From: a virus
Taxonomy: Duplodnaviria > Heunggongvirae > Uroviricota > Caudoviricetes
IMG/VR virus record: IMGVR_UViG_2537561603_000004
Location: 1-53,635 of that record
Length of the DNA stretch: 53,635 nt
Reading direction: 5' to 3' (one strand)
Of this stretch, positions 5,344 through 38,828 are shown one piece after another. Numbering within the stretch: the stretch's first letter is position 1; each line of letters opens with the position of its first letter. Below the pieces are notes generated by a model. The model searched no databases. It saw nothing but the letters and a program-made list of their open reading frames with translations, and was not told the origin of the DNA. A program made the position numbers and the translations under genes.

Positions 5344-5381
5344 CATTGCTATTGGTGATATCAATACTTATTGCTATTATT
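5344..5381. promoter_or_regulatory. Putative leftward operator/promoter (OL/PL-like) with TTGCTATT motifs
   Basis: Motif TTGCTATT at 5346-5353 and 5371-5378 matches the motif repeated in the repressor/cro intergenic region (7146-7153, 7171-7178). Confidence 0.35.
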
Positions 5382-6051: not shown

Positions 6052-6059
6052 TGTTAATA

Positions 6060-6329
6060 TTATGACTTATTGGTTTTAGCTCTATCATGCTGATCGCGAA
6101 TAAAGTCAGCGAGTTTAAGCATTAAATCTTCCGTCATGCGAATTGTTGCAATGTTGTACTTTACGTTTTCAGTGTCATTACTACCATCAGCGCCCCATTC
6201 TGTAACATGCTGAAAGAAAGATATGGAGCCTAAGCGATCGTCATCTTCCCCAAAAGATGAATATCCAAATGCATCAGCATATGCATCTACACAGTTATTT
6301 GATTTTTTTATAAGTTTTTTATCACTCAT
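6060..6329 (-). CDS. Hypothetical acidic protein
   Basis: 89-aa ORF immediately downstream of the repressor gene, same strand, AT-rich. Confidence 0.45.
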   Translation of the reverse strand: MSDKKLIKKSNNCVDAYADAFGYSSFGEDDDRLGSISFFQHVTEWGADGSNDTENVKYNIATIRMTEDLMLKLADFIRDQHDRAKTNKS

Positions 6330-6408
6330 TTTTGCCTTTCCCGTAATGTTATTTTTATAAAGAATTCTTTCAGCGCATTACCCAAAAGCCTCATCAGCAC
6401 GCAGCTGA

Positions 6409-7101: not shown

Positions 7102-7211
7102 AAGTTTTAATTTATACGCTTGCGTATTGATGGTCAAAACACGTTTTGCTATTGAATGGGTTGATACGCATTGCTATTATCTGTTCATTGCAATACCAAT
7201 AGGAATTGATA
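7102..7211. promoter_or_regulatory. Divergent PRM/PR-like promoter-operator region
   Basis: Intergenic region between divergent repressor and cro-like genes with repeated TTGCTATT motifs and an inverted copy (cattgcaata at 7186-7195). Confidence 0.5.
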
Positions 7212-7439
7212 ATGACAAATCAAACCATTCAACTCGCAATCAGTATTACAGGTAGTCAAAAACGACTGGCAGATCTATGCGGTGTAGCCCAACCCACTGT
7301 TTGGCGTTGGCTACACGGTGGCGGAATTGATGCCCGCTATGTAATGAAAATTGTCTCAGCCACTGGTGGAAAGATTAAACCAGCAGATATTCGTCCCGAC
7401 CTCGCACCATTGTTTAACGCGAGTAATTCTGCCGCCTAA
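7212..7439 (+). CDS. Cro-like HTH regulator
   Basis: 75-aa protein divergent from the repressor; HTH-like segment (LADLCGVAQPTVWRWL); ATG at 7212 preceded by aggaa. Confidence 0.7.
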   Translation: MTNQTIQLAISITGSQKRLADLCGVAQPTVWRWLHGGGIDARYVMKIVSATGGKIKPADIRPDLAPLFNASNSAA

Positions 7440-7463
7440 ACTGCGGCGTTAACTGATAAGGCA

Positions 7464-8009
7464 ATGACTATGCAACCACTTACATACCAACAGACTAGCG
7501 GATTTAGCCCGACAGCGGTGATAAATCGTTCTCAAACAAAACAGGTGCCAGGCCACGAAAAAATCCGTGATGCCGTCCGCGCCTGGTCGGCTGTAGATAA
7601 TCAGGATGTCGTTGCCACACTCATTGTGAATGAGTATCGGGAGCAGGGCGGCGGCACCATCGATTTCCCTGATGATGTCAGCCGTGCACGCCAGAAGCTG
7701 TTCCGCTTCCTCGATAACAAATTCGATTCTGAAAAATACCGAAATAACGTGCGTGAATTGACCCCGGCAATTCTGGCGGTACTACCGCTGGAATATCGCG
7801 GCCACTTGGTTGAGCAGGATAGCTTCATGGCTCGGCTGGCTGAAATGGAAAAGGAACTCAGTGAGGCAAAACAGGCTGTCATTCTCAACGCACCACGCCA
7901 CCAGAAACTGAAGGAGATGAGTGAAGGCATTGTGTCGATGTTTCGTGTGGACCCGGACCTGGCTGGTCCATTGATGGCGATGGTCACCACCATGCTGGGG
8001 GCAATATGA
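7464..8009 (+). CDS. CII-position regulatory protein (YdaT-like, tentative)
   Basis: 181-aa ORF between cro-like gene and O, the position of cII; family assignment from weak recollection only. Confidence 0.4.
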   Translation: MTMQPLTYQQTSGFSPTAVINRSQTKQVPGHEKIRDAVRAWSAVDNQDVVATLIVNEYREQGGGTIDFPDDVSRARQKLFRFLDNKFDSEKYRNNVRELTPAILAVLPLEYRGHLVEQDSFMARLAEMEKELSEAKQAVILNAPRHQKLKEMSEGIVSMFRVDPDLAGPLMAMVTTMLGAI

Positions 8010-8095
8010 CAGGTTCAGAAATGGCAAAAGCCGGTCTGCGCGAACAGAACCGACTTTCAGGTGCAAATCGTAACACACTCATTGCGGGAGGAATT

Positions 8096-9025
8096 ATGGC
8101 AAACACTGCTGAGATATTCAATTTTCCAGTGCCGGATGCGGCACAAAAGGAGCCGCGCGTGGCAGATCTCGATGATGGTTATACGCGCATTGCAAATGAG
8201 TTGCTGGAAGCTGTGATGCTGGCCGGATTAACACAGCACCAGCTTCTGGTCTTCCTGGCTGTCATGCGCAAAACATATGGCTTTAATAAAAAACTGGATT
8301 GGGTTAGCAACGAGCAACTTTCCGAATTAACCGGGATATTGCCGCACAAGTGTTCTGCTGCAAAAAGTGTTCTGGTAAAGCGTGGGATTTTTATTCAGAG
8401 CGGGCGGAATACCGGCATTAATAATGTGGTCAGTGAATGGTCAACATTACCCGAATCAGGTAAGAAAAATAAAGTTTACCTGAAAGAGGTAAATTTACCT
8501 GAATCAGGTAAAAAAAGTTTACCCAAATCAGGTAAAGGCGTTTACCCGAATCAGGTAAACACAAAAGACAAACTAACAAAAGACAATATAAAACCTTTTT
8601 CGTCCGAGAATTCTGGCGAATCCTCTGACCAACCAGAAAACGATCTTCCTGTGGTGAAACCGGATGCTGCAATTCAGAGCGGCAGCAAGTGGGGGACAGC
8701 AGAAGACCTGACCGCCGCAGAGTGGATGTTTGACATGGTGAAGACCATCGCGCCATCAGCCAGAAAACCGAATTTTGCAGGGTGGGCTAACGATATCCGC
8801 CTGATGCGTGAACGTGACGGACGTAACCACCGCGACATGTGCGTGCTGTTCCGCTGGGCATGCCAGGACAACTTCTGGTCCGGTAACGTGCTAAGTCCGG
8901 CCAAACTCCGCGACAAGTGGACCCAACTCGAAATCAACCGTAACAAGCAACAGGCAGGCGTGACAGCTAGCAAACCAAAACTCGACCTGACAAACACAGA
9001 CTGGATTTACGGGGTGGATCTATGA
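8096..9025 (+). CDS. O: Replication initiator protein O
   Basis: Strong similarity to lambda O N-terminus (VADLDDGY...LLEA...KTYG.NK) with the LPESGK repeat region encoded by ori iterons; ATG at 8096 preceded by gggagg. Confidence 0.9.
   Translation: MANTAEIFNFPVPDAAQKEPRVADLDDGYTRIANELLEAVMLAGLTQHQLLVFLAVMRKTYGFNKKLDWVSNEQLSELTGILPHKCSAAKSVLVKRGIFIQSGRNTGINNVVSEWSTLPESGKKNKVYLKEVNLPESGKKSLPKSGKGVYPNQVNTKDKLTKDNIKPFSSENSGESSDQPENDLPVVKPDAAIQSGSKWGTAEDLTAAEWMFDMVKTIAPSARKPNFAGWANDIRLMRERDGRNHRDMCVLFRWACQDNFWSGNVLSPAKLRDKWTQLEINRNKQQAGVTASKPKLDLTNTDWIYGVDL
8447..8558 (+). repeat. Origin of replication iterons (ori-lambda type) inside O
   Basis: Five ~17-bp repeats TTACC(C/T)(G/A)AA(T/A)(C/G)AGGTAA at 8447, 8476, 8496, 8519 and 8542, followed by an AT-rich stretch. 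Confidence 0.8.
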
Positions 9026-9723
9026 AAAACATCGCCGCACAGATGATTAACTTTGACCGTGAGCAGATGCGTCGGATCGCCAACAACATGCCGGAACAGT
9101 ACGACGAAAAGCCGCAGGTACAGCAGGTAGCGCAGATAATCAACGGTGTATTCAGCCAGTTACTGGCAACTTTCCCGGCGAGCCTGGCTAATCGTGACCA
9201 GAACGAACTGAACGAAATCCGCCGCCAGTGGGTTCTGGCTTTCCGGGAAAACGGGATCACCACGATGGAGCAGGTGAGCGCCGGAATGCGTGTTGCCCGT
9301 CGGCAGAATAGACCATTTCTGCCATCACCCGGGCAGTTTGTTGCATGGTGCCGGGAAGAAGCATCCGTTACCGCCGGGCTGCCAAACGTCAGCGAGCTGG
9401 TTGATATGGTTTACGAGTATTGCCGGAAGCGTGGTCTGTATCCGGATGCAGAGTCTTATCCGTGGAAATCAAACGCGCACTACTGGCTGGTTACCAACCT
9501 GTATCAGAACATGCGGGCCAATGCGTTGACTGACGCGGAATTACGGCGCAAGGCTGCCGATGAACTGGCCTGTATGACCGCGCGAATTAACCGTGGTGAG
9601 GCTATACCTGAACCAGTAAAACAACTTCCTGTCATGGGCGGTAGGCCTCTAAATCGTGCACAGGCTCTGGCGAAGATCGCAGAAATCAAAGCTAAGTTCG
9701 GGCTGAAAGGAGCGATGAAATAG
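9022..9723 (+). CDS. P: Replication protein P (DnaB helicase loader)
   Basis: 233-aa translation near-identical to lambda P (MKNIAAQMINFDREQMRRIANNMPEQYDEKPQVQQ...). Confidence 0.95.
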   Translation: MKNIAAQMINFDREQMRRIANNMPEQYDEKPQVQQVAQIINGVFSQLLATFPASLANRDQNELNEIRRQWVLAFRENGITTMEQVSAGMRVARRQNRPFLPSPGQFVAWCREEASVTAGLPNVSELVDMVYEYCRKRGLYPDAESYPWKSNAHYWLVTNLYQNMRANALTDAELRRKAADELACMTARINRGEAIPEPVKQLPVMGGRPLNRAQALAKIAEIKAKFGLKGAMK

Positions 9724-9972
9724 AGCTAAAGTATTAGCTTAAAAATAAAGTATACCTAGCGAATATAATCTAGGACTAGTTGTAACGCCCGAAATGATTG
9801 ATTGCGTGAGCAACAAAATTTTTCTTCCATTGTTGTGAAATCATTTAGCCATAAAGTTTATGCAGAGATTTTATTTTATTTTTGAGTTGATTTTTTTGTA
9901 ACGAGCTGTATATTTCGCGCCTCTTGTCATACCAGTTATTTTTTTCATTATATTCATAACGTTGATTGAACT

Positions 9973-20911: not shown

Positions 20912-21125
20912 CGGGTCCTTTCCGTCGATCCAACAGGTTACGGGGCGGCGACCTCGCGGGTTTTCGCTATTTATGAAAATTTTCCGGTTTAAGGCGTTTC
21001 CGTTCTTCTTCGCCGTAACTTAATGTTTTTATTTAAAACACTCCCTGAAAAGAAAGGAAACGACAGGTGCTGAAAACGGGCTTTTTGGCCTCTGTCGTTT
21101 CCTTTCTCTGTTTTTGTCCGTGGAA
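20912..21125 (+). other. cos: Prophage cos site (cosQ-cosN-cosB); cosN at about 20943-20954
   Basis: Sequence matches the lambda cohesive-end region (gggcggcgacctcgcgggttttcgctatttatgaaaattttccggtttaaggcgtttccgttcttctt...) immediately upstream of nu1. Confidence 0.9.
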
Positions 21126-27075: not shown

Positions 27076-27351
27076 ATGTCGATGTACACAACCGCCCAGC
27101 TGCTGGCGGCAAATGAGCAGAAATTTAAGTTTGATCCGCTGTTTCTGCGTCTCTTTTTCCGTGAGAGCTATCCCTTCACCACGGAGAAAGTCTATCTCTC
27201 ACAAATTCCGGGACTGGTAAACATGGCGCTGTACGTTTCGCCGATTGTTTCCGGTGAGGTTATCCGTTCCCGTGGCGGCTCCACCTCTGAATTTACGCCG
27301 GGATATGTCAAGCCGAAGCACTTAGCATGGCTTTCTGAGGCTTTCGTGTAG
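27076..27351 (+). pseudogene. E: Major capsid protein E, 5' portion (codons 1-81), interrupted by insertion at 27320/27321
   Basis: Translation MSMYTTAQLLAANEQKFKFDPLFL...TPGYVKPKH matches the lambda gpE N-terminus, then reads into unrelated sequence (LAWLSEAFV) and stops; the remainder of E resumes at 38043. Confidence 0.9.
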
Positions 27352-27448
27352 TTGCTGGTTTTTACACTTAATCTTTTGATAATAAAGAATAAGTCTATCT
27401 GGCGCTTTCACTGGATTTTCCTCGTTATCTGTGTGTTGCAATCATCTC

Positions 27449-27469
27449 TGTATTGCAGCTTGTATTGCT
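27449..27469 (+). repeat. Arm-type repeat, left copy (TGTATTGCAGCTTGTATTGCT)
   Basis: 21-bp sequence repeated in the same orientation at 37942-37962 (one mismatch), just inside each element end. Confidence 0.6.
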
Positions 27470-27483
27470 TTTTGGGGCTTAAA

Positions 27484-28719
27484 ATGGCTGGCGAGAACAA
27501 ACTGAGCGACAAAGCACTTAAAGGATATCTGGGGAAACCCAGAGAAAAGCAGATCACCATTGCTGATGGAAAGGGGCTTTCTATTCGTGTGAGTACCAAG
27601 GGGGCTGTGAGCTTTGTTTTCTTCTACAGGTTAGCAGGTGGCCGGGCTGCTCCGGTCTGGCTAACGTTGGGTAAATATCCTGATATGTCACTCAAACAGG
27701 CAAGGGAAAAGCGCGACGAGTGCCGTGGTTGGTTGGCTGACAAACGTGATCCGCGTATCCAGATTAAGATTCAGGCTGAAGAACGCTTAAAGCCGGTCAC
27801 AGTGGAGGATGCACTAAATTACTGGTATGAAAATTACTGTAAGGTGCGTCGTAAAACTCATGCTGTAACGCTTGGCAGATTTCGAAAGCATATTTTTCCC
27901 TATATCGGTCATTTGCCTGTAAATGACACTCACCTATATGAATGGCTGGACTGTTTTGACCGAATTAAACGTAATGCACCAGTTATGGCGGCGTATGTTT
28001 TTTCTGACACTAAATTAGCTCTTCGTTTTTGTCGGGTACGCCAGTACGCGACGTGTGATGCTTTAAAGGATTTGCGCATGAGTGATGTGGGGCAGATTGC
28101 AGGTAAGCGGGATCGGGTTCTGGATGAAGCCGAGCTGGGCCAGCTCTGGAAAGCAATTTTTGTCGAGCCTGATTTAAAACTAATGTCTGAATACACGCGA
28201 AAAATGTTTGTACTTTGTACAGTATTTGGATGTCGAATGAGTGAAGCCCGATTATCAGAATGGAGCGAATGGGATCTCGAAAGTTGGGTTTGGACTGTAC
28301 CAAAAGATCACTCAAAAACTGGTGTTGAAATCGTCAGACCAGTACCTGAAATTCTACGACAGTGGGTAACGGATGTTCACGAAGAGACAAAACATACTGG
28401 TTATGTGCTGGGAAGTCTGCGAATTAGAGAAAGCGTAAGCAAGATTGGGGGGAAAATCGGTAAACGTTTGGGCCATGAAAAACAATGGTCACTACACGAC
28501 CTTAGAAGAACGCTATCTACTCATCTAAGTGATCTCGGTGTTGAATTTTATGTAGTAGAACAACTGTTAGGCCATGCGCTACCTGGCGTGGCAGGTGTTT
28601 ACAACCGGAGTAAGTTTATGGCTAAAAAACTGGATGCTCTGGAACTCTGGACTACATATCTCAATAGCATCGCAGGTGCTGATTCAAAAGTGATAATCCT
28701 CAAACAAAAGGCTGGTTAA
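27484..28719 (+). CDS. Tyrosine integrase (P4-type, satellite-associated)
   Basis: 411-aa protein from the ATG at 27484; catalytic motifs HDLRRT and LLGHA...GVYNR; the N-terminal extension in the ORF track is unlikely to be coding. Confidence 0.85.
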   Translation: MAGENKLSDKALKGYLGKPREKQITIADGKGLSIRVSTKGAVSFVFFYRLAGGRAAPVWLTLGKYPDMSLKQAREKRDECRGWLADKRDPRIQIKIQAEERLKPVTVEDALNYWYENYCKVRRKTHAVTLGRFRKHIFPYIGHLPVNDTHLYEWLDCFDRIKRNAPVMAAYVFSDTKLALRFCRVRQYATCDALKDLRMSDVGQIAGKRDRVLDEAELGQLWKAIFVEPDLKLMSEYTRKMFVLCTVFGCRMSEARLSEWSEWDLESWVWTVPKDHSKTGVEIVRPVPEILRQWVTDVHEETKHTGYVLGSLRIRESVSKIGGKIGKRLGHEKQWSLHDLRRTLSTHLSDLGVEFYVVEQLLGHALPGVAGVYNRSKFMAKKLDALELWTTYLNSIAGADSKVIILKQKAG

Positions 28720-28720
28720 C

Positions 28721-28948
28721 ATGAAAAAAATGGCGATTGTTGATAAAAAGGGTCTGGAGTACATTCCTAACATCGATCGTATGATCCGTGAGAAAGAATG
28801 TCGGGAGCTAACCACTCTTGCGAACAGCACACGCTGGAAGCTGGAGAAGGAAGGGAAATTTCCTAAGCGGATCAAGATTGGCTCCACTGCTGTTGCATAT
28901 CGTCTTTCAGAAGTGCAGGCATGGATTCGAGGTGAGTGGGTAGTTTAA
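28721..28948 (+). CDS. AlpA-family transcriptional regulator/excisionase
   Basis: 75-aa protein with AlpA-like HTH (LANSTRWKLEKEGKFPKRIKIGSTAVAYRLSEVQAWI) directly after the integrase. Confidence 0.7.
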   Translation: MKKMAIVDKKGLEYIPNIDRMIREKECRELTTLANSTRWKLEKEGKFPKRIKIGSTAVAYRLSEVQAWIRGEWVV

Positions 28949-29017
28949 ATTATCTCAGAATAAAATATTATGAATTACTGATTTGAGAATTTGCACTCAA
29001 ATCAGTAATAACATTCT

Positions 29018-29554
29018 TTATAAGAGATTAAATCCAAATAAAGAGTAATCATATGCCGGGGTGCATTGCATCCCACTGAATATGCTGATATTTTTTTCTG
29101 TTTCTATCCTTTTTTCAATAAGTTGTTGTATATTTTTACAGTACAATTTGTGTGTGATGTTATTATCGTAAGCCTGATATAACAACGTCAATGTTGACGC
29201 TATGAAACATGCAGAAAGAAAATGAACTAGTACATGTGAACGTTTTTTGGTTGTCCATGATGCATTCGCTTGTGAAATATAAATCATTCTGAGAAGGATA
29301 ATGATGATAGACAGTAACAGACCACTCAATAAAATAAGCATTGGGTTTGCGTATTTTATTAATGGTTGAGAGCAAAAAACCATTATGGCTCCTGTGACTG
29401 CGTATGAGAAAAAGGAGTAATTAAACTTTTTACTTCTTCTCTCAAGTATTTTAATTTCATCTTGTGTGGGGGTTTTAGATGCCTCTAATATAAGTTTATT
29501 GAATGTTTCTATTATCTTGTTTTTTATGTTTGTGGCTATTTTTTTTAGATTCAT
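29018..29554 (-). CDS. Multi-pass membrane protein of unknown function (accessory cargo)
   Basis: 178-aa ORF with ~4 hydrophobic helices in a strongly AT-rich segment (about 28950-29870); own RBS (gggag). Confidence 0.5.
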   Translation of the reverse strand: MNLKKIATNIKNKIIETFNKLILEASKTPTQDEIKILERRSKKFNYSFFSYAVTGAIMVFCSQPLIKYANPMLILLSGLLLSIIIILLRMIYISQANASWTTKKRSHVLVHFLSACFIASTLTLLYQAYDNNITHKLYCKNIQQLIEKRIETEKNISIFSGMQCTPAYDYSLFGFNLL

Positions 29555-29904
29555 AGTATTCTAACTCCCTTAACTTATTTATTACTTTCTCTTTATGATA
29601 AGAGAGGGGAATGACTTGGTAAAGTGATTTGTAATTAATAATGATAATCCTTGCGATAAATATTTCTGCAAGTTATTTATCTGTTTGTTGCTATCTTGTT
29701 AAGCGTTGGGTGTGGTTTATGTTTGGAGCGACTTTATTTAATCGTGATTTTATGGATCTATATTTATATCCTGTAAGATAAGCGCATGTTAGTTCAGGAG
29801 TAGTGTCAGATAAAATTATTCGGAGTAGAACTACCTTTTCTGTTTATTGCCAGTATTTACATAGCAATGCGCCGTAGTTACTCACATCACGGCGCTGATA
29901 GTAA

Positions 29905-30207
29905 TTATTCAGATTCTTTGGCTTTACGCCGCTGGAGTTCTTCACGAGCGACGGCTACGAGTTGCCCGATTTCCTCCGCTGCCTTGATGCCGATTTGTTC
30001 GACCTTAGCTAAGGCATCCAGTGAAGACACGAGGGGATTTTCTCCGCTTCCTTCTGCCTGGCGGCGGGCGATCTCACCGCGCATGGCGGTTACTATGAAT
30101 CCGGCGTTGCTTTCGCCGTCCAGTTTTACGGATTCCATGCCCTCCATAACATCGTGGGGAACCCTGATCGTTGTCATTTGCGATTTTGCATTTTTGTATA
30201 CAGACAT
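29905..30207 (-). CDS. Ribbon-helix-helix (CopG/Arc-like) DNA-binding protein, putative repressor
   Basis: 100-aa ORF; N-terminal TTIRVPHDVMEGMESV pattern resembles an RHH beta-strand/helix; divergent from the rightward replication operon with operator-like repeats between. Confidence 0.45.
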   Translation of the reverse strand: MSVYKNAKSQMTTIRVPHDVMEGMESVKLDGESNAGFIVTAMRGEIARRQAEGSGENPLVSSLDALAKVEQIGIKAAEEIGQLVAVAREELQRRKAKESE

Positions 30208-30226
30208 AGTTAATCACCAATTTGTT

Positions 30227-30329
30227 ATGTGTATATCACTATACACAAAAGTGAGATATAAAAACACTTGCAATGTATATCACCACAATATAATGTATAT
30301 CTCACATCATGGTCGCTATGTATCTCACA
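30227..30329. promoter_or_regulatory. Divergent promoter region with repeated TGTAT(A)TC(A/T)CA operator-like motifs
   Basis: Direct repeats at 30227-30240, 30273-30284, 30293-30306 and 30318-30329, plus an inverted element (atatcac ... gtgagatat). Confidence 0.5.
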
Positions 30330-30415
30330 ATGATCGATTCATAAAAACGACGAAACCCGGCAGTGCGCGAACACTAACCGGGCTTCTAACCAAACCGTTA
30401 AACGAGGTAACGATT

Positions 30416-30781
30416 ATGGCTGGAACACAGCATACCCAAACTCACCCTAAATTTATATACACCTTTCTGGCACTACACCACGACCGCATGGCAGATGGAG
30501 CAACTACGGTACATGTTGCCGCTGACACGCTGGTTGATGCCCGCAAGATGGTTAAGGAGATGGGCTATACTGCGGCTTTCTGGAAAGGGCGTGAAGAAAA
30601 CACGCTGTTTATTCAGAAATGCGAAAACAATTTCATCTGGCGTTTTATCGCCCTGAGCACCGCACAACCACGCGTAATACACATCGAGGCCGCCAGCGAA
30701 CAGGAAGCCCGCCAGCAATTCCCAACTGGCTACGTGATGATATTCGCCGCCCGTATTCGTCAGGAGGTGTGCCATGAATGA
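30416..30781 (+). CDS. Hypothetical protein (first gene of rightward operon)
   Basis: 121-aa ORF from the ATG at 30416; the upstream part of the 304-aa track ORF spans the promoter and is rejected. Confidence 0.4.
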   Translation: MAGTQHTQTHPKFIYTFLALHHDRMADGATTVHVAADTLVDARKMVKEMGYTAAFWKGREENTLFIQKCENNFIWRFIALSTAQPRVIHIEAASEQEARQQFPTGYVMIFAARIRQEVCHE

Positions 30782-30998
30782 TCTTTATTTTAAAGTGCTG
30801 ACACATGCTGAAAACGCGCTCGTTTGTGGCAAAAATATGCGAGAAATCTTATCAACCTGGCTTGATGGGACAACAAATGCGGAACACGATGAACGGGATG
30901 CTAATTTAGCTGGAGCGTTAATTACGTTACTTGATCCTGTCATCAAAGAGCTGGATGAAGCTATAAAAATACACGACCAGAGCTATACCGGAGAATAA
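30774..30998 (+). CDS. Hypothetical protein
   Basis: 74-aa ORF with strong RBS (aggaggtg), overlapping the upstream gene stop. Confidence 0.4.
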   Translation: MNDLYFKVLTHAENALVCGKNMREILSTWLDGTTNAEHDERDANLAGALITLLDPVIKELDEAIKIHDQSYTGE

Positions 30999-31001
30999 AA
31001 A

Positions 31002-31289
31002 ATGAAAAATAAATTTTCTGGCTTTATTGCCAGCGGTCAAACTCATTCAAAAATCAGCCTTGGGGATATTTTCAAAGACAGCTATGGCTATCGGGTAAAG
31101 ATTATTTCGGTTGATGATCGTCGTGTCTCTTATTTGCGTGATGGTTATGATTTTGAATGTGTTATGCCGCGTCAGCAGTTCGAAAGAGATTTCATTCTGG
31201 TAAAAAATTGCAAGACAGATAATCAGAGGCGTGCCGCAGGCTATATCCGTAAAATTCGGGCAATGTTAGTTGCCGGAGGTAACAAATGA
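31002..31289 (+). CDS. Hypothetical protein
   Basis: 95-aa ORF overlapping the primase start. Confidence 0.4.
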   Translation: MKNKFSGFIASGQTHSKISLGDIFKDSYGYRVKIISVDDRRVSYLRDGYDFECVMPRQQFERDFILVKNCKTDNQRRAAGYIRKIRAMLVAGGNK

Positions 31290-33106
31290 AACGTGCTCCG
31301 AACTTAAAATACCAACCGCGCGACAAAATGACGGAAGTCATCATTTTTGCTGGCAGTGATGCCTGGAGCCATGCAAAAGAATGGAATGAATGGGCAGGTA
31401 AGCATATTGCAGCAGATGATACACCACCAGTCATTCTGGGTACGGAACAACTGGAAAACCTGGATGATATGCAAATTATCGATGAAGGCCGTCATTATGT
31501 GCGTGTTTATCGTGCCGGAAAGATTGCAGAGAAAAGTCTGACGAAGGTTGCGACATTACTTGCTATTGCAGGCGTAAAGGAAGCACGTTGTTACCGTAGC
31601 TTTGTTGATCGAGAGCCTGAAGACTGGACTCCGCGCCTTGTCGGCCTAAAAGCTGAAGCGGAGCATGGGGAAAGTCTGGTGATTGAACTGCCAGTTAAGA
31701 AGGCTGAGCGCAAAAATGACGAGCGTGCTTCATCTTTGGCGTTGAATCAGATGGGGGCCAGCCAGCGCGGTGAAGTTCTCCTTGCACATTACGGCGGCGA
31801 ACTGGCAATCAATGCCGACTCTGACACCGTTCATCATTACAACGGCGTTGTATGGGAGCCGGTTCAGGATAAAGAGTTACAGCGTGCTATGGCGCAGATT
31901 TTCATTGATGCGGAGATCAGCTATTCGCAGAACGCTATTAAATCGGCGGTAGATACCATGAAGTTAAGTTTGCCTGTAATGGGGAATACAGCCCGTAACC
32001 TGATTGGATTCAGTAACGGGGTATTTGATACCAGAACTGGTAACTTTCGGGAGCATAACAAAAACGACTGGTTGTTAATTGCCAGTGAATTACCTTTCAG
32101 CCCACCAGCAGAGGGGGAAACGCTGGCAACACATGCGCCGAATTTCTGGAAGTGGTTGCGCCGTTCGGTGGCTGAGAATGACCGCAAGGCAGATCGCGTA
32201 CTGGCGGCATTATTCATGGTGCTGGCGAACCGGTACGACTGGCAGTTATTCATTGAGGTAACAGGGCCGGGGGGAAGTGGTAAAAGTGTGATGGCGGAGA
32301 TTTGCACCATGCTGGCGGGTAAGGCTAATACAGTATCAGCAAGCATGAAGGCGCTGGAAGATGCAAGGGAACGTGCGTTAGTGGTTGGCTTTTCGCTGAT
32401 TATCATGCCGGATATGACCCGCTACGCTGGTGATGGGGCAGGGATTAAGGCCATTACAGGCGGTGACAAGGTGGCAATTGACCCGAAACACAAAGCCCCC
32501 TATTCAACGCGTATTCCGGCAGTAGTGCTGGCGGTTAACAATAACGCCATGTCATTCAGTGACCGCAGCGGGGGGATCTCACGTCGTCGGGTGATATTCA
32601 ATTTTTCGGAAGTTGTACCGGAGAACGAACGCGATTCGATGCTGGCGGAAAAAATAGAAGGTGAGCTGGCGGTAGTGATTCGCCATCTGCTTACACGGTT
32701 TGCTGATCAGGACGAAGCCAGACGCCTGTTATATGAGCAGCAGAAATCTGAAGAAGCACTGGCGATAAAGCGAGAGGGGGATTCGCTGGTGGACTTCTGC
32801 GGCTATCTCATGGCATCGGTAATGTGTGATGGCCTGTTAGTGGGTAATGCTGAAATTGTGCCATTCAGCCCACGCAGGTATCTCTATCATGCCTATCTGG
32901 CTTATATGAGGGCACATGGGTTTGGTAAACCTGTAACACTGACGCGCTTCGGTAAAGATATGCCGGGGGCAATGGCGGAATATGGCAGGGAGTATATGAA
33001 ACGGAAAACGAAGCACGGTTTGCGTTCAAACGTGACACTGACGGAGGAATCAGAAGACTGGATGCCATCATGTGTATCGGTCACTAATGACGATAGCAAA
33101 AATTAA
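31286..33106 (+). CDS. Primase-helicase (P4/PICI-type Pri-Rep, SF3 helicase C-terminal domain)
   Basis: 606-aa protein with Walker A (GPGGSGKS) and following Walker B-like region; RBS ggaggt; followed immediately by iterons. Confidence 0.75.
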   Translation: MKRAPNLKYQPRDKMTEVIIFAGSDAWSHAKEWNEWAGKHIAADDTPPVILGTEQLENLDDMQIIDEGRHYVRVYRAGKIAEKSLTKVATLLAIAGVKEARCYRSFVDREPEDWTPRLVGLKAEAEHGESLVIELPVKKAERKNDERASSLALNQMGASQRGEVLLAHYGGELAINADSDTVHHYNGVVWEPVQDKELQRAMAQIFIDAEISYSQNAIKSAVDTMKLSLPVMGNTARNLIGFSNGVFDTRTGNFREHNKNDWLLIASELPFSPPAEGETLATHAPNFWKWLRRSVAENDRKADRVLAALFMVLANRYDWQLFIEVTGPGGSGKSVMAEICTMLAGKANTVSASMKALEDARERALVVGFSLIIMPDMTRYAGDGAGIKAITGGDKVAIDPKHKAPYSTRIPAVVLAVNNNAMSFSDRSGGISRRRVIFNFSEVVPENERDSMLAEKIEGELAVVIRHLLTRFADQDEARRLLYEQQKSEEALAIKREGDSLVDFCGYLMASVMCDGLLVGNAEIVPFSPRRYLYHAYLAYMRAHGFGKPVTLTRFGKDMPGAMAEYGREYMKRKTKHGLRSNVTLTEESEDWMPSCVSVTNDDSKN

Positions 33107-33116
33107 ACTTATGGAA

Positions 33117-33345
33117 TAACTGTTCACCACTGTTCACCCTGTCATAAATATCTTTTATATCAGTATATTATAGGGTGAACAGTTATTTATGAACTGTTCA
33201 CCAAACTATTCACTGTTCACCTTTTTGATTGTTTATTGAGCTTCAAGGGTGAACAGTGGTGAACAGTTGGTGAATAGTTTTTGTGAAACTGTTCACCAAT
33301 TAACATTATGAATTAAAAGAGAAAATATCAAAAGGTGAACAGGTG
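33117..33345. repeat. Replication origin iterons (CTGTTCACC / GGTGAACAG, about 10 copies in both orientations)
   Basis: Dense array of 9-bp repeats immediately downstream of the primase-helicase gene. Confidence 0.8.
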
Positions 33346-33393
33346 AAGGGTTAAAACGCAAAAATTTTAATTTACTGCTGTGAGATAAAGCCT

Positions 33394-33639
33394 ATGACAG
33401 CGAAGCACACAAAAAAATCACAATCGCACGCCCTTGATTTGACGGAACACTGGTTAAGGGTGTCGATAAAAATCATCGACCGCAACGCCGGGGAAGGATA
33501 CGCGAAAGCACATCCCGAACTGATTAGCGCATTCATGACAACGGCGGCTGCAAACTTTGCCACTCTGACCGAACGGGAGATTGCTGAAGCGGAGGAAGTG
33601 ACAACAATCAATATTAAGTCCGGAGAGCAGGCAGCATGA
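33394..33639 (+). CDS. Hypothetical protein
   Basis: 81-aa ORF between ori and ssb. Confidence 0.35.
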   Translation: MTAKHTKKSQSHALDLTEHWLRVSIKIIDRNAGEGYAKAHPELISAFMTTAAANFATLTEREIAEAEEVTTINIKSGEQAA

Positions 33640-34085
33640 CGGCGCAAATATCAGTTTACGGGCGGTTGGTGGACGACCCGCAGACAAAACAGACCAGCAA
33701 GGGCACCCCCATGACGCTGGCGCGTATGGCGGTATCACTGCCCTGCAGTCAGTCGGATGACGGTCAGGCGACGATGTGGTTATCTGTCCTGGCGTTTGGC
33801 AGACAAGCCGACGCGCTGGCAAAGCATCACAAAGGCGAACTCCTGAGCGTGGCGGGTAACATGCAGATGAGCCAGTGGACTGGACAGAACGGCGAAACGC
33901 GGCAGGGCTGGCAGGTTATCGCAGACAGCGTAATCAGTGCGCGATCGGTGCGACCGGGCGGCAATAAAGGCCAACAGGGGCAGGCTACTGACGCACTGAA
34001 CAGAGCAAAACAACAGGCAGATCAGCAAGGAAGCCAGCCACCAGTGGGAGATAATGAGCAATGGGGAGATGATATCCCGTTTTAA
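33636..34085 (+). CDS. ssb: Single-stranded DNA-binding protein (SSB)
   Basis: 149-aa protein with OB-fold-like N-terminus (ISVYGRLVDDPQ...), Gly/Gln-rich linker and the SSB-signature acidic tail DDIPF. Confidence 0.7.
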   Translation: MTAQISVYGRLVDDPQTKQTSKGTPMTLARMAVSLPCSQSDDGQATMWLSVLAFGRQADALAKHHKGELLSVAGNMQMSQWTGQNGETRQGWQVIADSVISARSVRPGGNKGQQGQATDALNRAKQQADQQGSQPPVGDNEQWGDDIPF

Positions 34086-34302
34086 ATATTGCCAATAAAA
34101 AAAGGCCGGAAAAAATAAATTTTCCGGCATGCTACATAAATCCCGACCAAAGGGAGTGAAGATATTAACACTAATTTTCCGCACTGAAGTTGTCACCCCA
34201 AAACTTTATACAACATTGCACTCGGTTGCATGTATTCGCATGACAAATATCGGTGATAGCATATATCCACAATTATTTTTAATGAATGCAAAGAGGATGC
34301 GT

Positions 34303-35343
34303 ATGGTTGATTTATATTCGCCTACTCAGCTTGTACAGGTGGTTAATGCTGTAGATGTACAAAAACAACTAAATGCGTTGTTTACCAGTTTGTTTTTTAC
34401 TCGCTCGGTAATGTTTGAATCGCGCGATATTATTCTTGATACAATCGACGATCCAAATATCCCAATTGCAGCGTTTTGTTCTCCTATGGTGGGTAGTAAA
34501 GTTTCACGTGACGAAGGGTACGAATCAAAAACAATTCGTCCAGGCTATATGAAGCCGAAAAGCAGCATTGATCCAAATAAGTTAGCTGTGCGCCCTGCTG
34601 GTGTATCACCTGAGCAATACAATGCTTTTGGGGCGCGTAATATTAAAGTTAAACAGGCGATTGTAAATCAAGCTAAAGCTATTCGTGCACGTATTGAATG
34701 GCTTGCTGTTCAGGCAATCACAACGGGGAAAAATATCATTGAGGGCGATGGTATTGAACGTTATGAGCTGGACTGGAATATTAAACCACAAAATATCATC
34801 ACTCAGTCTGGCGGTGCTGAGTGGTCAGGTAAGGATAAAGAAACTTTTGATCCAAATGATGATATTGAGAGCTACGCAGAATTTAGTGAGGGCGTCACTA
34901 ATATTATCATTATGGGCGGTAATGTATGGAAGAAATACCGTTCATTCAGAGCGATAAAAGAGGCTCTGGATACCCGTCGTGGTTCTAATTCCGAACTGGA
35001 AACGGCCCTTAAAGACCTTGGTGATTCGGTGAGTTTTAAAGGGTATATGGGCGATGTTGCGATTGTTGTTTACAGCGGGCGTTATACCGACGAGGACGGA
35101 ACAGAAAAACATTTCCTTGATCCTGATTTGATGGTGCTTGGCAATACGGCTCTTCAGGGGATTGTCGCCTATGGCGGTATTCAGGATCCGGAGCTAATCC
35201 GAATGGGGCTGACTAAAGCCGAACTTGCACCGAAAAACTATATTGTGCCTGGTGATCCGGCTATTGAATATGTGCAGACACATTCAGCACCACAGCCAAT
35301 ACCGGCCCGCATCAATCGTTTTGTTACCGTTCGCATTGGCTAA
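34303..35343 (+). CDS. Element-encoded major capsid protein, divergent homologue of lambda gpE
   Basis: ~346-aa protein with clear but partial similarity to lambda gpE along its length (e.g. TRRGSNSELETA.KDLG...GDVAIVVYSG); ATG at 34303 with RBS aagagga. Confidence 0.8.
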   Translation: MVDLYSPTQLVQVVNAVDVQKQLNALFTSLFFTRSVMFESRDIILDTIDDPNIPIAAFCSPMVGSKVSRDEGYESKTIRPGYMKPKSSIDPNKLAVRPAGVSPEQYNAFGARNIKVKQAIVNQAKAIRARIEWLAVQAITTGKNIIEGDGIERYELDWNIKPQNIITQSGGAEWSGKDKETFDPNDDIESYAEFSEGVTNIIIMGGNVWKKYRSFRAIKEALDTRRGSNSELETALKDLGDSVSFKGYMGDVAIVVYSGRYTDEDGTEKHFLDPDLMVLGNTALQGIVAYGGIQDPELIRMGLTKAELAPKNYIVPGDPAIEYVQTHSAPQPIPARINRFVTVRIG

Positions 35344-35352
35344 GGGGGAGCA

Positions 35353-35694
35353 ATGGCTACTCATTACACTGAACTCATGGCTGGCACTGAAGCACTGGTG
35401 ACTACGCTGGGGATATTTTCAGCTAATAAAGGGGTAATTCCTGCATTTACGCCACTGATGCAGGAAGATGCAACAGGTGCACTGGTGGTATGGGATGGTT
35501 CGAGCGTAGGTAAAGCGGTTTATGTTTCCGCTGTACAAATCGACACCGCGAAAAAAACACAGGCTCAGGTCTATAAGACAGGTGTCTTAAATGTTGATGC
35601 TCTGAACTGGCCTGAGTCTGTTAAAGAACTGTCAGTAAAGGTTGCAGCGTTTGTTGGCTCAGGTATTTCTGTTCAGCCGCTGGCTCGTGTGTAA
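35353..35694 (+). CDS. Element-encoded decoration protein, divergent homologue of lambda gpD
   Basis: 113-aa protein alignable to lambda gpD (PAFTPLMQEDATGALVVWDGSSVGKAV... versus [27 protein letters not shown]...). Confidence 0.7.
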   Translation: MATHYTELMAGTEALVTTLGIFSANKGVIPAFTPLMQEDATGALVVWDGSSVGKAVYVSAVQIDTAKKTQAQVYKTGVLNVDALNWPESVKELSVKVAAFVGSGISVQPLARV

Positions 35695-35705
35695 AGGGGG
35701 ATACA

Positions 35706-36089
35706 ATGCAGAATGATTACAATGACCTTAAGCCAATTGCCGAAATGATGTACCCGAATCAAGCTGTAGAGGAATTAAAAGCTATCGCTGACAAAATGTG
35801 TTTAAGCGAGCGCCTTGTTGATATGAATCAGGTGATGGAAATTACAACCCTGAGTCGTCGTACACTGCTAAACCTTGAGGCTAGTGGAGAGTTCCCGGAG
35901 CGTGTGCAGGTTACGGAAGGGCGTAAGGCCTGGTATTTAAGTGAAGTGATCGACTGGATAAATAATATTCCTCGCGCTTCTGAATATTGCCGCGTACCTG
36001 TCCCAAAAAAGCCAGATGCGGCGCTATGCCTCAAGATTGAGCGTGTACGCCGCAATGCACGGGATGGTCGCTATAAGCTGATTGGTTGA
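35706..36089 (+). CDS. AlpA/MerR-like winged-HTH protein upstream of the element cos site
   Basis: 127-aa protein; segment MEITTLSRRTLLNLEASGEFPERVQVTEGRKAWYLSEVIDWI is AlpA-like. Confidence 0.5.
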   Translation: MQNDYNDLKPIAEMMYPNQAVEELKAIADKMCLSERLVDMNQVMEITTLSRRTLLNLEASGEFPERVQVTEGRKAWYLSEVIDWINNIPRASEYCRVPVPKKPDAALCLKIERVRRNARDGRYKLIG

Positions 36090-36109
36090 TGAAATTAGGG
36101 CCCGCTCTG

Positions 36110-36320
36110 GCTGGCGGGTCCTTTCCGGCGATCCAGAACGTTACGGGGCGTCAGGCGCGCAGTTTTTTGCTATTTGTGAAAATTTTCCTGTTTAAGGCGT
36201 TTCCGTTCTTCTTCGCCGTAACTTAATGTTTTTATTAAAAACACCCCCTAAAAAGAAAGGAAACGACAGGTGCTAAAAACAGGCTTTTTGGCCTCTGTCG
36301 TTTCCTTTCTCTGGTTTTGT
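36110..36320 (+). other. Second cos-like site (cosQ/cosB conserved, cosN region divergent)
   Basis: ~210 bp alignable to the prophage cos at 20912-21125; the cosN-equivalent reads gggcgtcaggcg instead of gggcggcgacct. Confidence 0.8.
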
Positions 36321-36687
36321 TGCCATCCGTCGCGGTCTATCACCAGAAAAAATCTTATCCCTGAGTTGAATCAGGCACTATTCAGAAGCGGCCAATAACG
36401 CGCCGCTAGCTTCACTTCATAGTTATGGCCTACTTCTGCGCCATTGCAATTGCTTTATGCGCCTTGATGGTGGAATATAGAGCAAGCAGTTTGCGAATAA
36501 CAAAGTTTCATATGTTTTTTGCTGTGTGGCTAGACAACTTTACAGCAGAGTTTTGTGTCAGTTCTTTATGTGTGCAAGCAAGCTTGAGGGGGAATTACTT
36601 CTGGCTGCATCTTTGCTTAAGAACAGCAATAATTTAATCATAAGGAAATGTATATAAGCCTGATTAAATTTCAGGCTTATTGAAATG

Positions 36688-37830
36688 TTAACTCCTTATT
36701 AGAGAGTAAATTCCATCCTCTTTAAGGAAGTCTATTACTTCAAAGAATGAGATAAAGAATTCCCAAGAACCAAAAGCATATGCATGAATTTCGTAAGGTG
36801 CAAAATGGAATCTAAATCCATCACTATTTATTGTGAACGAGTCTAAGTTACTATCCATGATACCCGTTGCAAACGTACTAATGTCGTCCTCACTTGGTTT
36901 TTCACCAGTTTTCTCCCAAAATTCACGAGCTGATTCAGAGATTATTTTTTGTTTTATCTTATTAATCGCTTCTTGCTCTTTCCCTTCGGTAAATACATCC
37001 CATAAACTAAATTTGTATGCGTAGTCATCCTTGGTTATTACGAAATTACTAGTTTCAAAATGACTGTTAGGGTGTGCTGCTCCCGCACCATACCAATGTA
37101 CGGAATGAAGGATGCTCATGACATTTTCGTTACAGTATGAGATGTTATAACTTTCATTATAGGAACTAGTGTAAGTGTGTTTATATTCTTCATCCCAATA
37201 TGGTGTTCCTGGCCATAGTGATGTGCGTTCAGAAAAAATATGTAAAGCCGCTTTTCCTGAAAAGTAATCACTAATGAGTTTTGCTGATTTCGGTAATGTA
37301 TGGCTTTCAATTCTTGGATATGCTATTTCAATTTCATGCCCTGGGATCTTGTTATATTCTTCCTTGAAAACCTCGCTGCTAAAGTTAAATGGCCCATAAG
37401 TGATACCTTGAGATATTTCAAGTTTTTGTTGCGATGCTGCTAATCTTAAAGATCTAGATAAAATGTCCCAACCATCATTTCTCTTAAAATCAATGAATTG
37501 GAGCTTGCTTGATATGTAGGCGGGTACTTCGCAATCATCAATAAGTAATGGTATCACGAACACATCATCTGGTTTGTAATACTTTAGTTTATCAATGGCG
37601 TCATTTATTTCGCGGCGAATATAACCATTTTTCTGAGTGCTCACTTTGCTAAGGATAAGGATTATCAAGTTTGAATTAGCGAAGTTTTTTTGGATTTCAT
37701 AATCCCAGTTTACGCCAGCGGGTATATCTTTTACATCCATCCAAGGGGAATATCCTCCACTTTTTAGCCTTTCATAGATTTCTTCAGTTATCGTTTCATC
37801 TTCTTTTGCATGAGCAAGAAAAATTTTCAT
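36688..37830 (-). CDS. TIR-domain protein with uncharacterised C-terminal domain (candidate anti-phage effector)
   Basis: 380-aa ORF; N-terminal ~120 aa fit a bacterial TIR fold (MKIFLAHAKEDE...LKSGGYSPWMDVKDIPAGVNWDYEI...SNLIILILSKVS...REINDAI); AT-rich, own RBS (aagga); between the element cos and its right end. Confidence 0.7.
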   Translation of the reverse strand: MKIFLAHAKEDETITEEIYERLKSGGYSPWMDVKDIPAGVNWDYEIQKNFANSNLIILILSKVSTQKNGYIRREINDAIDKLKYYKPDDVFVIPLLIDDCEVPAYISSKLQFIDFKRNDGWDILSRSLRLAASQQKLEISQGITYGPFNFSSEVFKEEYNKIPGHEIEIAYPRIESHTLPKSAKLISDYFSGKAALHIFSERTSLWPGTPYWDEEYKHTYTSSYNESYNISYCNENVMSILHSVHWYGAGAAHPNSHFETSNFVITKDDYAYKFSLWDVFTEGKEQEAINKIKQKIISESAREFWEKTGEKPSEDDISTFATGIMDSNLDSFTINSDGFRFHFAPYEIHAYAFGSWEFFISFFEVIDFLKEDGIYSLIRS

Positions 37831-37941
37831 TGAATATTCCTTTATAATTTAACTAATTAAGTGAAGGAGGCTTTACTTGGCTGTGTTAGAAAAAATTCGG
37901 TTTGTTTTTTGTACGATGCCAAGAAGGCTTTTCCCTAACCA

Positions 37942-37962
37942 TGTATTGCAGCATGTATTGCT
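37942..37962 (+). repeat. Arm-type repeat, right copy (TGTATTGCAGCATGTATTGCT)
   Basis: Same-orientation copy of the 27449-27469 repeat. Confidence 0.6.
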
Positions 37963-38042
37963 ACGTAATTCTGCACCCTCTCATTTATAAAATAAATCTC
38001 TGTTAAATCAAGTATCTTTTTTCTATTTGACTCATGTAACCC

Positions 38043-38828
38043 AAGCATGAAGTGAATCCGCAGATGACCCTGCGTCGCCTGCCGGATGAAGATCCGCAGA
38101 ATCTGGTGGACCCGGCTTACCGCCGCCGTCGCATCATCATGCAGAACATGCGTGACGAAGAGCTGGCCATTGCTCAGGTCGAAGAGATGCAGGCAGTTTC
38201 TGCCGTGCTTAAGGGCAAATACACCATGACCGGTGAAGCCTTCGATCCGGTTGAGGTGGATATGGGCCGCAGTGAGGAGAATAACATCACGCAGTCCGGC
38301 GGCACGGAGTGGAGCAAGCGTGACAAGTCCACGTATGACCCGACCGACGATATCGAAGCCTACGCGCTGAACGCCAGCGGTGTGGTGAATATCATCGTGT
38401 TCGATCCGAAAGGCTGGGCGCTGTTCCGTTCCTTCAAAGCCGTCAAGGAGAAGCTGGATACCCGTCGTGGCTCTAATTCCGAGCTGGAGACAGCGGTGAA
38501 AGACCTGGGTAAAGCGGTGTCCTATAAGGGGATGTATGGCGATGTGGCCATCGTCGTGTATTCCGGACAGTACGTGGAAAACGGCGTCAAAAAGAACTTC
38601 CTGCCGGACAACACGATGGTGCTGGGGAACACTCAGGCACGCGGTCTGCGCACCTATGGCTGCATTCAGGATGCGGACGCACAGCGCGAAGGCATTAACG
38701 CCTCTGCCCGTTACCCGAAAAACTGGGTGACCACCGGCGATCCGGCGCGTGAGTTCACCATGATTCAGTCAGCACCGCTGATGCTGCTGGCTGACCCTGA
38801 TGAGTTCGTGTCCGTACAACTGGCGTAA
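38043..38828 (+). pseudogene. E: Major capsid protein E, 3' portion (codons ~80-341), separated from 5' portion by the insertion
   Basis: Translation KHEVNPQMTLRRLPDEDPQNL...FVSVQLA matches lambda gpE from residue ~80 to the C-terminus, in frame with the core. Confidence 0.9.

What the first reader, a model, noticed from the sequence alone, without database searches (positions are those of the whole stretch)
27076..38828. A ~10.7 kb integrase-bearing satellite-like element is inserted inside the prophage major capsid gene E
Lambda-type gpE is split after codon ~81. The 5' part (27076-27320) runs into unrelated sequence and the remainder resumes exactly in frame at 38043. The intervening 10.7 kb carries its own integrase at the left end, arm-like direct repeats near both ends, and a 5-bp AAGCA core at both junctions. 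Recombination between the cores would regenerate the wild-type E sequence gtcaagccgaagcatgaagtgaatccg. This makes helper capsid production conditional on excision, resembling developmentally excised intervening elements. I do not recognise a satellite integrated in a helper capsid gene as a described arrangement.
Basis: partly seen in the sequence, partly recalled or inferred. Interest (0 to 1): 0.95.

Follow-up and report, generated by a model that had tools for sequence, protein, structure and literature searches.

The report
Known satellite inside prophage capsid gene
A 10.7-kb phage satellite really is inserted in the major capsid gene of a lambda-like E. coli prophage, but this arrangement, and an element identical in sequence to this one, was published in 2023 as a "helper-embedded PICI", so it is correct but not new.

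Summary
Lambda-type gene E starts at 27076 and is broken after 27320. It resumes in frame at 38043/38048. An AAGCA core lies at both junctions. Joining the halves gives a 341-codon gene 99.7% identical to lambda E, and 100% identical to uninterrupted E genes in five E. coli genomes.

The 10,727-bp insert is a Gram-negative PICI-type satellite. It carries int, alpA, a primase with iterons, SSB, its own E-like and D-like head genes, a cos site and a TIR cargo gene.

It is already described. Tommasini, Mageeney and Williams (2023, PMC10111431) named this the helper-embedded PICI "11capE", site E:Phage_cap_E:80. They showed excision after mitomycin C and counted 201 instances in E. The integrase here is 409/411 identical to theirs. 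The doubled TGTATTGC motifs sit where they reported. A 100%-identical copy (CP019944) is in their supplementary table.

I find the junction in 173 of 5,426 complete E. coli genomes.

Small leftovers not discussed in that paper:
- a satellite-specific 12-nt cosN next to a helper-type cosB;
- a variable defence-gene slot, here TIR+DUF3298;
- free mixing of two att flank alleles.

Verdict: real and correctly read, not novel, low interest.

The parts
27076..27320 (+). 5' fragment of helper major capsid gene E (codons 1-81 plus 2 nt); the ORF runs on into the satellite to a stop at 27351
27316..27320 (+). attL core AAGCA (the flank here is the lambda-type GCCG allele)
27321..38047 (+). Helper-embedded PICI, 10,727 bp counting one core copy; GC 43% against 51% for the helper
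27449..27468 (+). Doubled TGTATTGC motif (P' arm), about 131 bp downstream of the attP centre
   Evidence: paper section
27484..28719 (+). Satellite tyrosine integrase (411 aa), 409/411 identical to the 11capE integrase of NRG857c
28721..28948 (+). AlpA-family regulator / excisionase
29018..30207 (-). Two minus-strand genes of the variable zone: a hypothetical 178-aa protein (29018-29554) and a YlcI/YnfO-family protein (29905-30207)
30416..31289 (+). Icd-like / repressor-like gene, a small hypothetical gene and a DUF4222 gene
31286..33106 (+). D5-type primase/helicase (606 aa)
33109..33342 (.). Iterons (GGTGAACAG / CTGTTCACC) just downstream of the primase gene; likely satellite ori
   Evidence: position of ori in GN-PICIs as stated in PMC10111431
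33394..34085 (+). Small hypothetical gene and SSB
34303..35343 (+). Satellite's own Phage_cap_E major capsid homologue (346 aa; 42% identical to helper gpE; best PDB match 3bqw)
35353..35694 (+). Satellite's own gpD-like head decoration protein (37% identical to helper D)
35706..36089 (+). Second AlpA-like HTH protein (127 aa)
36115..36320 (+). Satellite cos region, 90% identical to helper cos. The cosB-side sequence is conserved; the cosN 12-mer at 36146-36157 is GGGCGTCAGGCG
36688..37830 (-). Cargo gene: TIR + DUF3298 protein (380 aa), in the variable slot after cos
37942..37961 (+). Doubled TGTATTGC motif (P arm), ending about 82 bp upstream of the attP centre
38043..38047 (+). attR core AAGCA (the flank here is the satellite-type ACCC allele)
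38048..38828 (+). 3' fragment of helper gene E, in frame with the 5' fragment
20912..21117 (+). Helper cos (canonical cosN GGGCGGCGACCT at 20943), upstream of Nu1

Best explanation
The insert is a helper-embedded phage-inducible chromosomal island (HE-PICI) of the published 11capE type, site group E:Phage_cap_E:80. It sits in the capsid gene of an apparently intact lambda-like prophage at the icd locus.

Proposed mechanism:
1. On SOS induction the whole composite excises from icd and replicates, copying the satellite passively.
2. Late transcription of the helper reads into the co-oriented satellite.
3. The satellite integrase, with AlpA, recombines attL and attR at the AAGCA core. This releases a 10.7-kb circle and restores helper E exactly.
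4. The satellite can then replicate from its own primase and iteron origin.
5. It is presumably packaged by the helper terminase through its helper-like cos site.

Shown here: the anatomy, the exact reconstitution of E, a natural empty site, near-identity to the reference element, and recurrence in different helpers.

Shown by others, for the reference element only: ordered excision after mitomycin C.

Inferred: that this copy is active, the read-through transcription, the packaging route, and the roles of the satellite's E-like and D-like genes.
For: - E is split at codon 81/82 and the joined gene is intact: 99.7% identical to lambda E and 100% identical to uninterrupted E alleles.
- The integrase is 409/411 identical to 11capE Int.
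- The backbone is 98.3% identical to NRG857c 11capE over 83% of its length.
- The doubled TGTATTGC motifs lie about 82 bp upstream and 131 bp downstream of the attP centre. The published values are 81 +/- 2 and 132 +/- 2.
- The gene order is int-alpA / variable zone / primase-ori-SSB / late genes, followed by cos.
- A copy 100% identical over bases 1-10,718 of the 10,722-base query lies in CP019944. The paper maps that copy to a different helper, at proP.
- Strain SCU-111 has a sister prophage at icd...sitABCD with identical portal, protease and D proteins and an uninterrupted E.
- The junction occurs in 173 of 5,426 complete genomes, in varied helpers.
- Excision of the reference element was measured by qPCR and deep sequencing (PMC10111431).
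Against: - No experiment exists for this copy.
- The published composite produced no detectable plaques or particles and was induced in only 7-11% of icd copies. Satellite transfer has therefore never been shown for this family.
- In this window the att identity block is only 5 bp, against 10 bp in the reference. This could lower excision efficiency.
- Some copies in other genomes are clearly decayed. MLI104K2, for example, has a frameshifted int, IS insertions and a truncated primase.
Confidence: 0.93

Rival explanations
1. This particular copy is a fixed, no longer mobile remnant. The composite prophage is defective and E stays split permanently.
For: - The reference composite yielded no plaques.
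- Decayed composites exist, such as L005.
- The att identity block here is only 5 bp.
- A helper side tail-fibre gene is annotated as partial in the near-identical TUM14697 copy.
Against: - All satellite genes are intact, including int and alpA.
- Both E halves are 100% identical to a functional-length allele, with no decay.
- The helper late-gene ORFs are full length.
- Identical satellites sit in different helpers, which implies recent movement.
- The 5-bp class is common: 79 genomes carry the lambda-type attL.
Confidence: 0.1
2. The element is not a satellite. It is a defence-carrying integrative island that uses the prophage capsid gene as a landing pad, disabling a resident prophage without being packaged by it.
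For: - The cargo slot carries defence-type genes that vary between copies: TIR, HEPN+DUF262, Abi, DUF2971.
- Particles of this family have never been seen.
Against: - It carries a cos region 90% identical to the helper's, with the cosB side conserved.
- It encodes E-like and D-like head genes.
- It has the gene order of GN-PICIs (PMC10111431), a class whose model EcCICFT073 is mobilised by lambda and phage 80 (PMC6739421).
- Its capsid protein is closest to PDB 3bqw, a putative prophage capsid protein.
Confidence: 0.05
3. The split is an assembly or chimeric-read artefact.
For: None found.
Against: The same junction occurs in 173 complete genomes from many laboratories. It was confirmed experimentally in NRG857c.
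Confidence: 0.005

Closest known systems
HE-PICI Eco567.11capE in prophage 50icd of E. coli NRG857c (Tommasini, Mageeney & Williams 2023, PMC10111431)
   Same: - Same target codon in lambda-type E.
- Same helper chromosomal site (icd).
- Integrase 99.5% identical.
- Same backbone genes in the same order.
- Same doubled att motif and same cos position.
- Same satellite E-like and D-like genes (the capsid protein accession WP_000228111.1 is identical).
   Different: - The cargo after cos is TIR+DUF3298 here, against HEPN+DUF262 in NRG857c.
- The att identity block is 5 bp here, against 10 bp there.
- The Icd-like gene is 366 nt here and 291 nt there.
EcCICFT073, the model Gram-negative cos PICI (Fillol-Salom et al. 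2018; 2019, PMC6739421)
   Same: - int-alpA-primase-ori layout.
- Lambdoid helper and cos-dependent packaging by helper terminase.
   Different: - EcCICFT073 sits in the chromosome, away from its helper.
- It keeps cosN and cosQ but has a different cosB, which is read by an Rpp-TerS complex.
- Here the cosB side is helper-like and the cosN 12-mer differs.
- No Rpp relative was found for the one protein tested, the 127-aa HTH.
Developmentally excised intervening elements and 'active lysogeny' switches (B. subtilis skin in sigK, Listeria phi10403S in comK); recalled from established knowledge, not tested here
   Same: A mobile element splits a gene, and precise excision restores it at a defined time.
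   Different: Here the interrupted gene belongs to another mobile element, the helper phage. The beneficiary is presumably the satellite, not the host cell.
Capsid-forming PICIs (Alqurainy et al. 2023)
   Same: A satellite that encodes its own head proteins.
   Different: cf-PICIs encode a complete head and packaging module. This element has only E-like and D-like genes: no portal, protease or terminase.

Membership tests
HE-PICI, site group E:Phage_cap_E:80 (PMC10111431) | [quoted passage not shown] | tested here: met
   E is split at 27320/38048. Satellite int through the second HTH gene and all helper late genes lie on the + strand.
HE-PICI, site group E:Phage_cap_E:80 (PMC10111431) | Insertion at about position 80 of the Phage_cap_E profile | tested here: met
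   The break is in codon 82. Protein residues 5-339 align to profile positions 1-328.
HE-PICI, site group E:Phage_cap_E:80 (PMC10111431) | Integrase belongs to the HE-PICI clade | tested here: met
   409/411 identity to the 11capE integrase. No phylogeny was built.
HE-PICI, site group E:Phage_cap_E:80 (PMC10111431) | Two co-oriented doubled TGTATTGC motifs, 81 +/- 2 bp upstream and 132 +/- 2 bp downstream of the attP centre | tested here: met
   Motifs at 37942-37961 and 27449-27468, giving distances of about 82 and 131 bp in the reconstructed attP.
HE-PICI, site group E:Phage_cap_E:80 (PMC10111431) | Excision after composite excision and replication on induction, restoring the late gene | not testable with these tools
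   Shown only for NRG857c. Here there is only the exact in-silico reconstitution and a natural empty site.
Gram-negative PICI | Four ordered zones: int+alpA, Bro/variable, primase+ori(+SSB), late genes; 10-20 kb in size | tested here: met
   size 10.7 kb. No Bro-N domain was detected by Pfam in the variable zone, only repressor-like PHROG matches.
Gram-negative PICI | cos site that helper terminase can use | tested here: inconclusive
   A 206-bp cos-like region is 90% identical to the helper's. However, the 12-nt cosN differs at 5 positions. Function was not tested.
Gram-negative PICI | Induction by and transfer with a helper phage | not testable with these tools
Particles were not detected even for the reference.
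Rpp-type packaging redirection (EcCICFT073) | Rpp protein plus a non-helper cosB | tested here: not met
   The cosB side is helper-like. The 127-aa HTH matches AlpA (8c3t) and not Rpp structures. The other small ORFs were not tested.

The most novel reading that the evidence does not exclude
This HE-PICI lineage keeps a helper-type cosB, so helper terminase binds it without an Rpp adaptor. It has, however, evolved a private 12-nt cohesive end: GGGCGTCAGGCG against the helper's GGGCGGCGACCT. If both are cut, satellite and helper DNA could not anneal to each other. The cos-to-cos segments of an unexcised composite (about 15 kb and about 38 kb) would then be dead ends with mismatched termini. Together with the satellite's own E-like and D-like shell genes, this would be a packaging-insulation strategy opposite to that of EcCICFT073.
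Probability: 0.15. Interest if true: 0.45.

Novelty: already known. Interest (0 to 1): 0.18.

Why it matters
The arrangement is biologically striking: a parasite of a virus sits inside the virus's own capsid gene and controls when that gene can be expressed. It was published in 2023, with excision kinetics and a survey of 491 further cases, so this window adds an instance and not a discovery.

What remains open for the whole family:
- whether these satellites are ever packaged and transferred;
- what their own capsid and decoration genes do;
- whether the divergent cosN and the swappable defence cargo matter.

This intact composite, together with the natural satellite-free sister prophage in SCU-111, would be a convenient pair for testing these questions.

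Tried and rejected
- Assembly artefact: rejected, because the junction occurs in 173 complete genomes.
- One ancient fixed insertion: rejected. Identical or near-identical satellites sit in helpers at icd, at proP and in the bioA/ybhB neighbourhood (locus L005), and the cargo differs between copies.
- Recent capture of the helper's own E and D genes by the satellite: rejected. They are only 42% and 37% identical at protein level. Nucleotide similarity is limited to one 136-bp patch at 76%.
- P4-type immunity RNA (Rfam C4/isrK) in the variable zone: not found at E <= 0.1. The only hit was a sub-threshold symR-like match.
- Rpp-type redirection: no support.
- Promoter and terminator scans of the element were at chance level. 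They gave no usable information on read-through from E into int, beyond the absence of a strong + strand terminator between 27320 and 27484.
- PADLOC recognised only the TIR domain of the cargo protein, not a defined system.
- No paper in the held library mentions both DUF3298 and TIR.
- First attempts with wrong coordinate syntax or frame and a missing file were simply repeated.
Full report
**1. Observation**

- Gene E starts with ATG at 27076. The reading frame is lambda-like up to AAGCA at 27316-27320. It then runs into unrelated sequence and stops at 27351.
- A second AAGCA lies at 38043-38047. From there the rest of E continues in frame to the stop at 38826-38828.
- Joining 27076-27320 to 38048-38828 gives a 1,026-nt ORF of 341 codons.
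- That ORF is 99.7% identical to E of phage lambda J02459 over its whole length.
- It is also 100% identical to uninterrupted E genes in five complete E. coli genomes.
- The insert is 10,727 bp, counting one core. Its GC content is 43%, against 51% for the rest of the window.
- A 20-nt doubled motif, TGTATTGC-N4-TGTATTGC, occurs once near each end, at 27449 and 37942. The two copies are co-oriented.

**2. What the insert encodes**

From left to right:

| Coordinates | Strand | Feature |
|---|---|---|
| 27484-28719 | + | 411-aa tyrosine integrase with an arm-binding domain |
| 28721-28948 | + | AlpA-family regulator |
| 29018-29554, 29905-30207 | - | two genes of a variable zone |
| 30416-30781 | + | Icd-like / repressor-like gene |
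| 31002-31289 | + | DUF4222 gene |
| 31286-33106 | + | D5-type primase-helicase |
| 33109-33342 | . | GGTGAACAG iterons, the expected position of a PICI origin |
| 33636-34085 | + | SSB |
| 34303-35343 | + | intact Phage_cap_E capsid gene |
| 35353-35694 | + | gpD-like decoration gene |
| 35706-36089 | + | second AlpA-like HTH protein |
| 36115-36320 | + | 206-bp region 90% identical to the helper cos region at 20912-21117 |
| 36688-37830 | - | cargo gene encoding a TIR + DUF3298 protein |

The satellite capsid protein is only 42% identical to helper gpE. The decoration protein is 37% identical to helper D. The capsid protein's best solved relative is 3bqw, deposited as a putative capsid protein of a prophage. 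That match is stronger than the match to lambda gpE.

**3. Context**

- The rest of the window is a lambda-like prophage with full-length late-gene ORFs: Nu1, A, W, B, C, D, FI to J, and lom.
- In the near-identical genome TUM14697, the composite lies between icd and sitABCD.
- The window differs from that genome by a 357-nt length difference. This matches the size difference between the 3,909-nt ORF at 9973-13881 and the 3,552-nt inverse-autotransporter gene annotated in TUM14697.

**4. It is already described**

A literature search found Tommasini, Mageeney and Williams, NAR Genomics and Bioinformatics 2023 (PMC10111431).

[quoted passage not shown] - They found 201 instances in E and 290 in other late genes.
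- After mitomycin C, they showed by qPCR and deep sequencing that the composite excises from icd and replicates. The satellite then excises precisely, by about 2 h, with 42-98% yield.
- They describe the doubled motif tgTGTATTGCantgTGTATTGCa, 81 +/- 2 bp upstream and 132 +/- 2 bp downstream of the attP centre.
- They note a 258-bp, 90%-identical cos-like region shared by satellite and helper.
- They also point out that the satellite's own capsid gene differs at the att-equivalent position. I see the same: 24 of 42 nt are identical.

**5. Membership tests**

- The integrase here is 409/411 identical to that of NRG857c.
- The backbone is 98.3% identical over 83% of the element.
- The motifs sit at about 82 and 131 bp from the attP centre.
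- The break falls in codon 82 of E.
- The element in CP019944 (DSM 103246) is 100% identical over bases 1-10,718 of the 10,722-base query. The paper's supplementary table lists it as Eco4802.11.E_Phage_cap_E_80, in a helper at proP.
- The same table lists att identity blocks 'aacccaagca', 'agccgaagca' and 'aagca'. The 5-bp class seen here is therefore also on record.

The HE-PICI concept has since been cited in satellite surveys and reviews.

**6. Population evidence gathered here**

- The attL junction is present in 173 of 5,426 complete E. coli genomes. Of these, 79 have the lambda-type flank GCCGAAGCA|CTTAGC.
- 3,154 genomes carry an uninterrupted E homologue.
- Strain SCU-111 has a sister prophage at the same icd...sitABCD locus. 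It has the same repressor, portal, protease and D protein accessions, and an uninterrupted E identical to the reconstituted gene. This is a natural empty site.
- Related satellites occur in different helpers. Some are clearly decayed, for example MLI104K2, with a frameshifted int and IS insertions.
- The region after cos is a variable slot:
  - TIR+DUF3298 here;
  - HEPN+DUF262 in NRG857c;
  - a small terminase subunit (terS) plus DUF2971 in strain 95-3322;
  - terS, a hypothetical protein and an Abi-family protein in locus L004 (NZ_CM187540).

**7. Mechanism**

The best-supported account is the published one: composite excision and replication, late read-through into the co-oriented satellite, Int/AlpA-mediated excision at the core, restoration of E, and cos-dependent packaging by helper terminase.

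- Established here: the anatomy, the exactness of reconstitution, and the recurrence.
- Established only for the reference element: the timing of excision.
- Never demonstrated for this family: packaging and transfer. The authors could not detect particles.

Two size inferences follow.

- The helper part of the window is 42.9 kb and the composite is at least 53.6 kb. The composite therefore exceeds the roughly 105% packaging limit of a lambda head (established knowledge). Excision would be needed for helper packaging on size grounds as well.
- Four satellite copies equal 42.9 kb. This fits the phage-length concatemer packaging reported for EcCICFT073.

**8. Details not discussed in the paper, as far as I could read it**

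(a) *cosN.* The cos similarity is uneven. The cosB side and the sequence left of the nick site are conserved. The 12-nt cosN is GGGCGTCAGGCG in the satellite, against GGGCGGCGACCT in the helper, which is 5 differences. The variant is shared by the satellites of loci L001 (TUM14697), L002 (strain 95-3322) and L003 (NRG857c), and occurs in 53 genomes. This is the reverse of EcCICFT073, which keeps cosN and changes cosB for Rpp-TerS recognition. No Rpp-like match was found for the HTH protein next to cos.

(b) *att flank alleles.* Across five loci, the four bases at -9 to -6 from the junction are either GCCG or ACCC. All four attL/attR combinations occur:

| Locus | attL | attR |
|---|---|---|
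| window | GCCG | ACCC |
| L002 | GCCG | GCCG |
| L003 | ACCC | ACCC |
| L004 | ACCC | GCCG |

.

(c) *Cargo.* The TIR+DUF3298 cargo is not assigned to a defined defence system by PADLOC.

**9. Verdict**

The claim of novelty is wrong. This is a catalogued member of a known kind, and overall interest is low.

Noticed in passing
window 36146-36157 (satellite) vs 20943-20954 (helper): The satellite cos region keeps the helper-type cosB side. Its 12-nt cosN is GGGCGTCAGGCG instead of GGGCGGCGACCT. The variant is conserved in three related satellites, including the published reference, and is present in 53 complete E. coli genomes. This is the opposite pattern to EcCICFT073, which keeps cosN and changes cosB.
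   Followed up: partly
window 36340-38042: A variable, low-GC (36%) cargo slot lies between cos and attR. Here it holds a minus-strand TIR + DUF3298 protein (380 aa). Sister elements carry HEPN+DUF262, DUF2971 with a small terminase subunit, or an Abi protein. PADLOC recognises only the TIR domain, and no paper in the held library mentions both DUF3298 and TIR.
   Followed up: partly
window 27311-27320 and 38038-38047; L002, L003, L004: The four bases just left of the AAGCA core are either GCCG or ACCC. All four attL/attR combinations occur among five loci. The satellite therefore integrates into either E allele, and AAGCA is the only block shared by all pairs.
   Followed up: partly
window 30349-30421 (-): A sub-threshold Rfam match to the SymR antisense antitoxin RNA (35 bits, gathering score 61, E = 0.001). 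It lies antisense to the start of the Icd-like gene. No C4/isrK (P4 CI-type) RNA was found.
   Followed up: no
window 29867-30781 (+): A 304-codon ORF contains the annotated 121-aa Icd-like gene at its 3' end and overlaps the minus-strand YlcI/YnfO gene. Only its last ~55 residues match phage repressor families strongly; one family (phrog_6928) gives a weak match at residues 172-230. It might be a nested-gene arrangement, as described for P4 eta/kil, or simply a spurious long ORF.
   Followed up: no
window 9973-14961: The helper prophage carries a large ORF of 1,302 codons, annotated in a sister genome as an inverse-autotransporter protein, and a minus-strand alpha/beta hydrolase gene. Both lie between replication gene P and the nin region. 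The window is 357 nt longer than TUM14697. This equals the difference between this 3,909-nt ORF and the 3,552-nt gene annotated there, but the difference was not localised and could be annotation start choice.
   Followed up: no
window 27321-38047 vs the rest of the window: Four satellite lengths (4 x 10,727 = 42,908 bp) equal exactly the non-satellite part of the window (42,908 bp). This is probably coincidence, since the window does not include the prophage ends. A four-copy concatemer would nevertheless fit a lambda-size head.
   Followed up: no
L005 (NZ_CP116925.1, strain MLI104K2) 14101-20700: A decayed example of the same arrangement. It has a frameshifted integrase, a truncated primase, IS5 and IS66 insertions, and a degraded helper. 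Helper-embedded satellites can evidently become fixed remnants.
   Followed up: no
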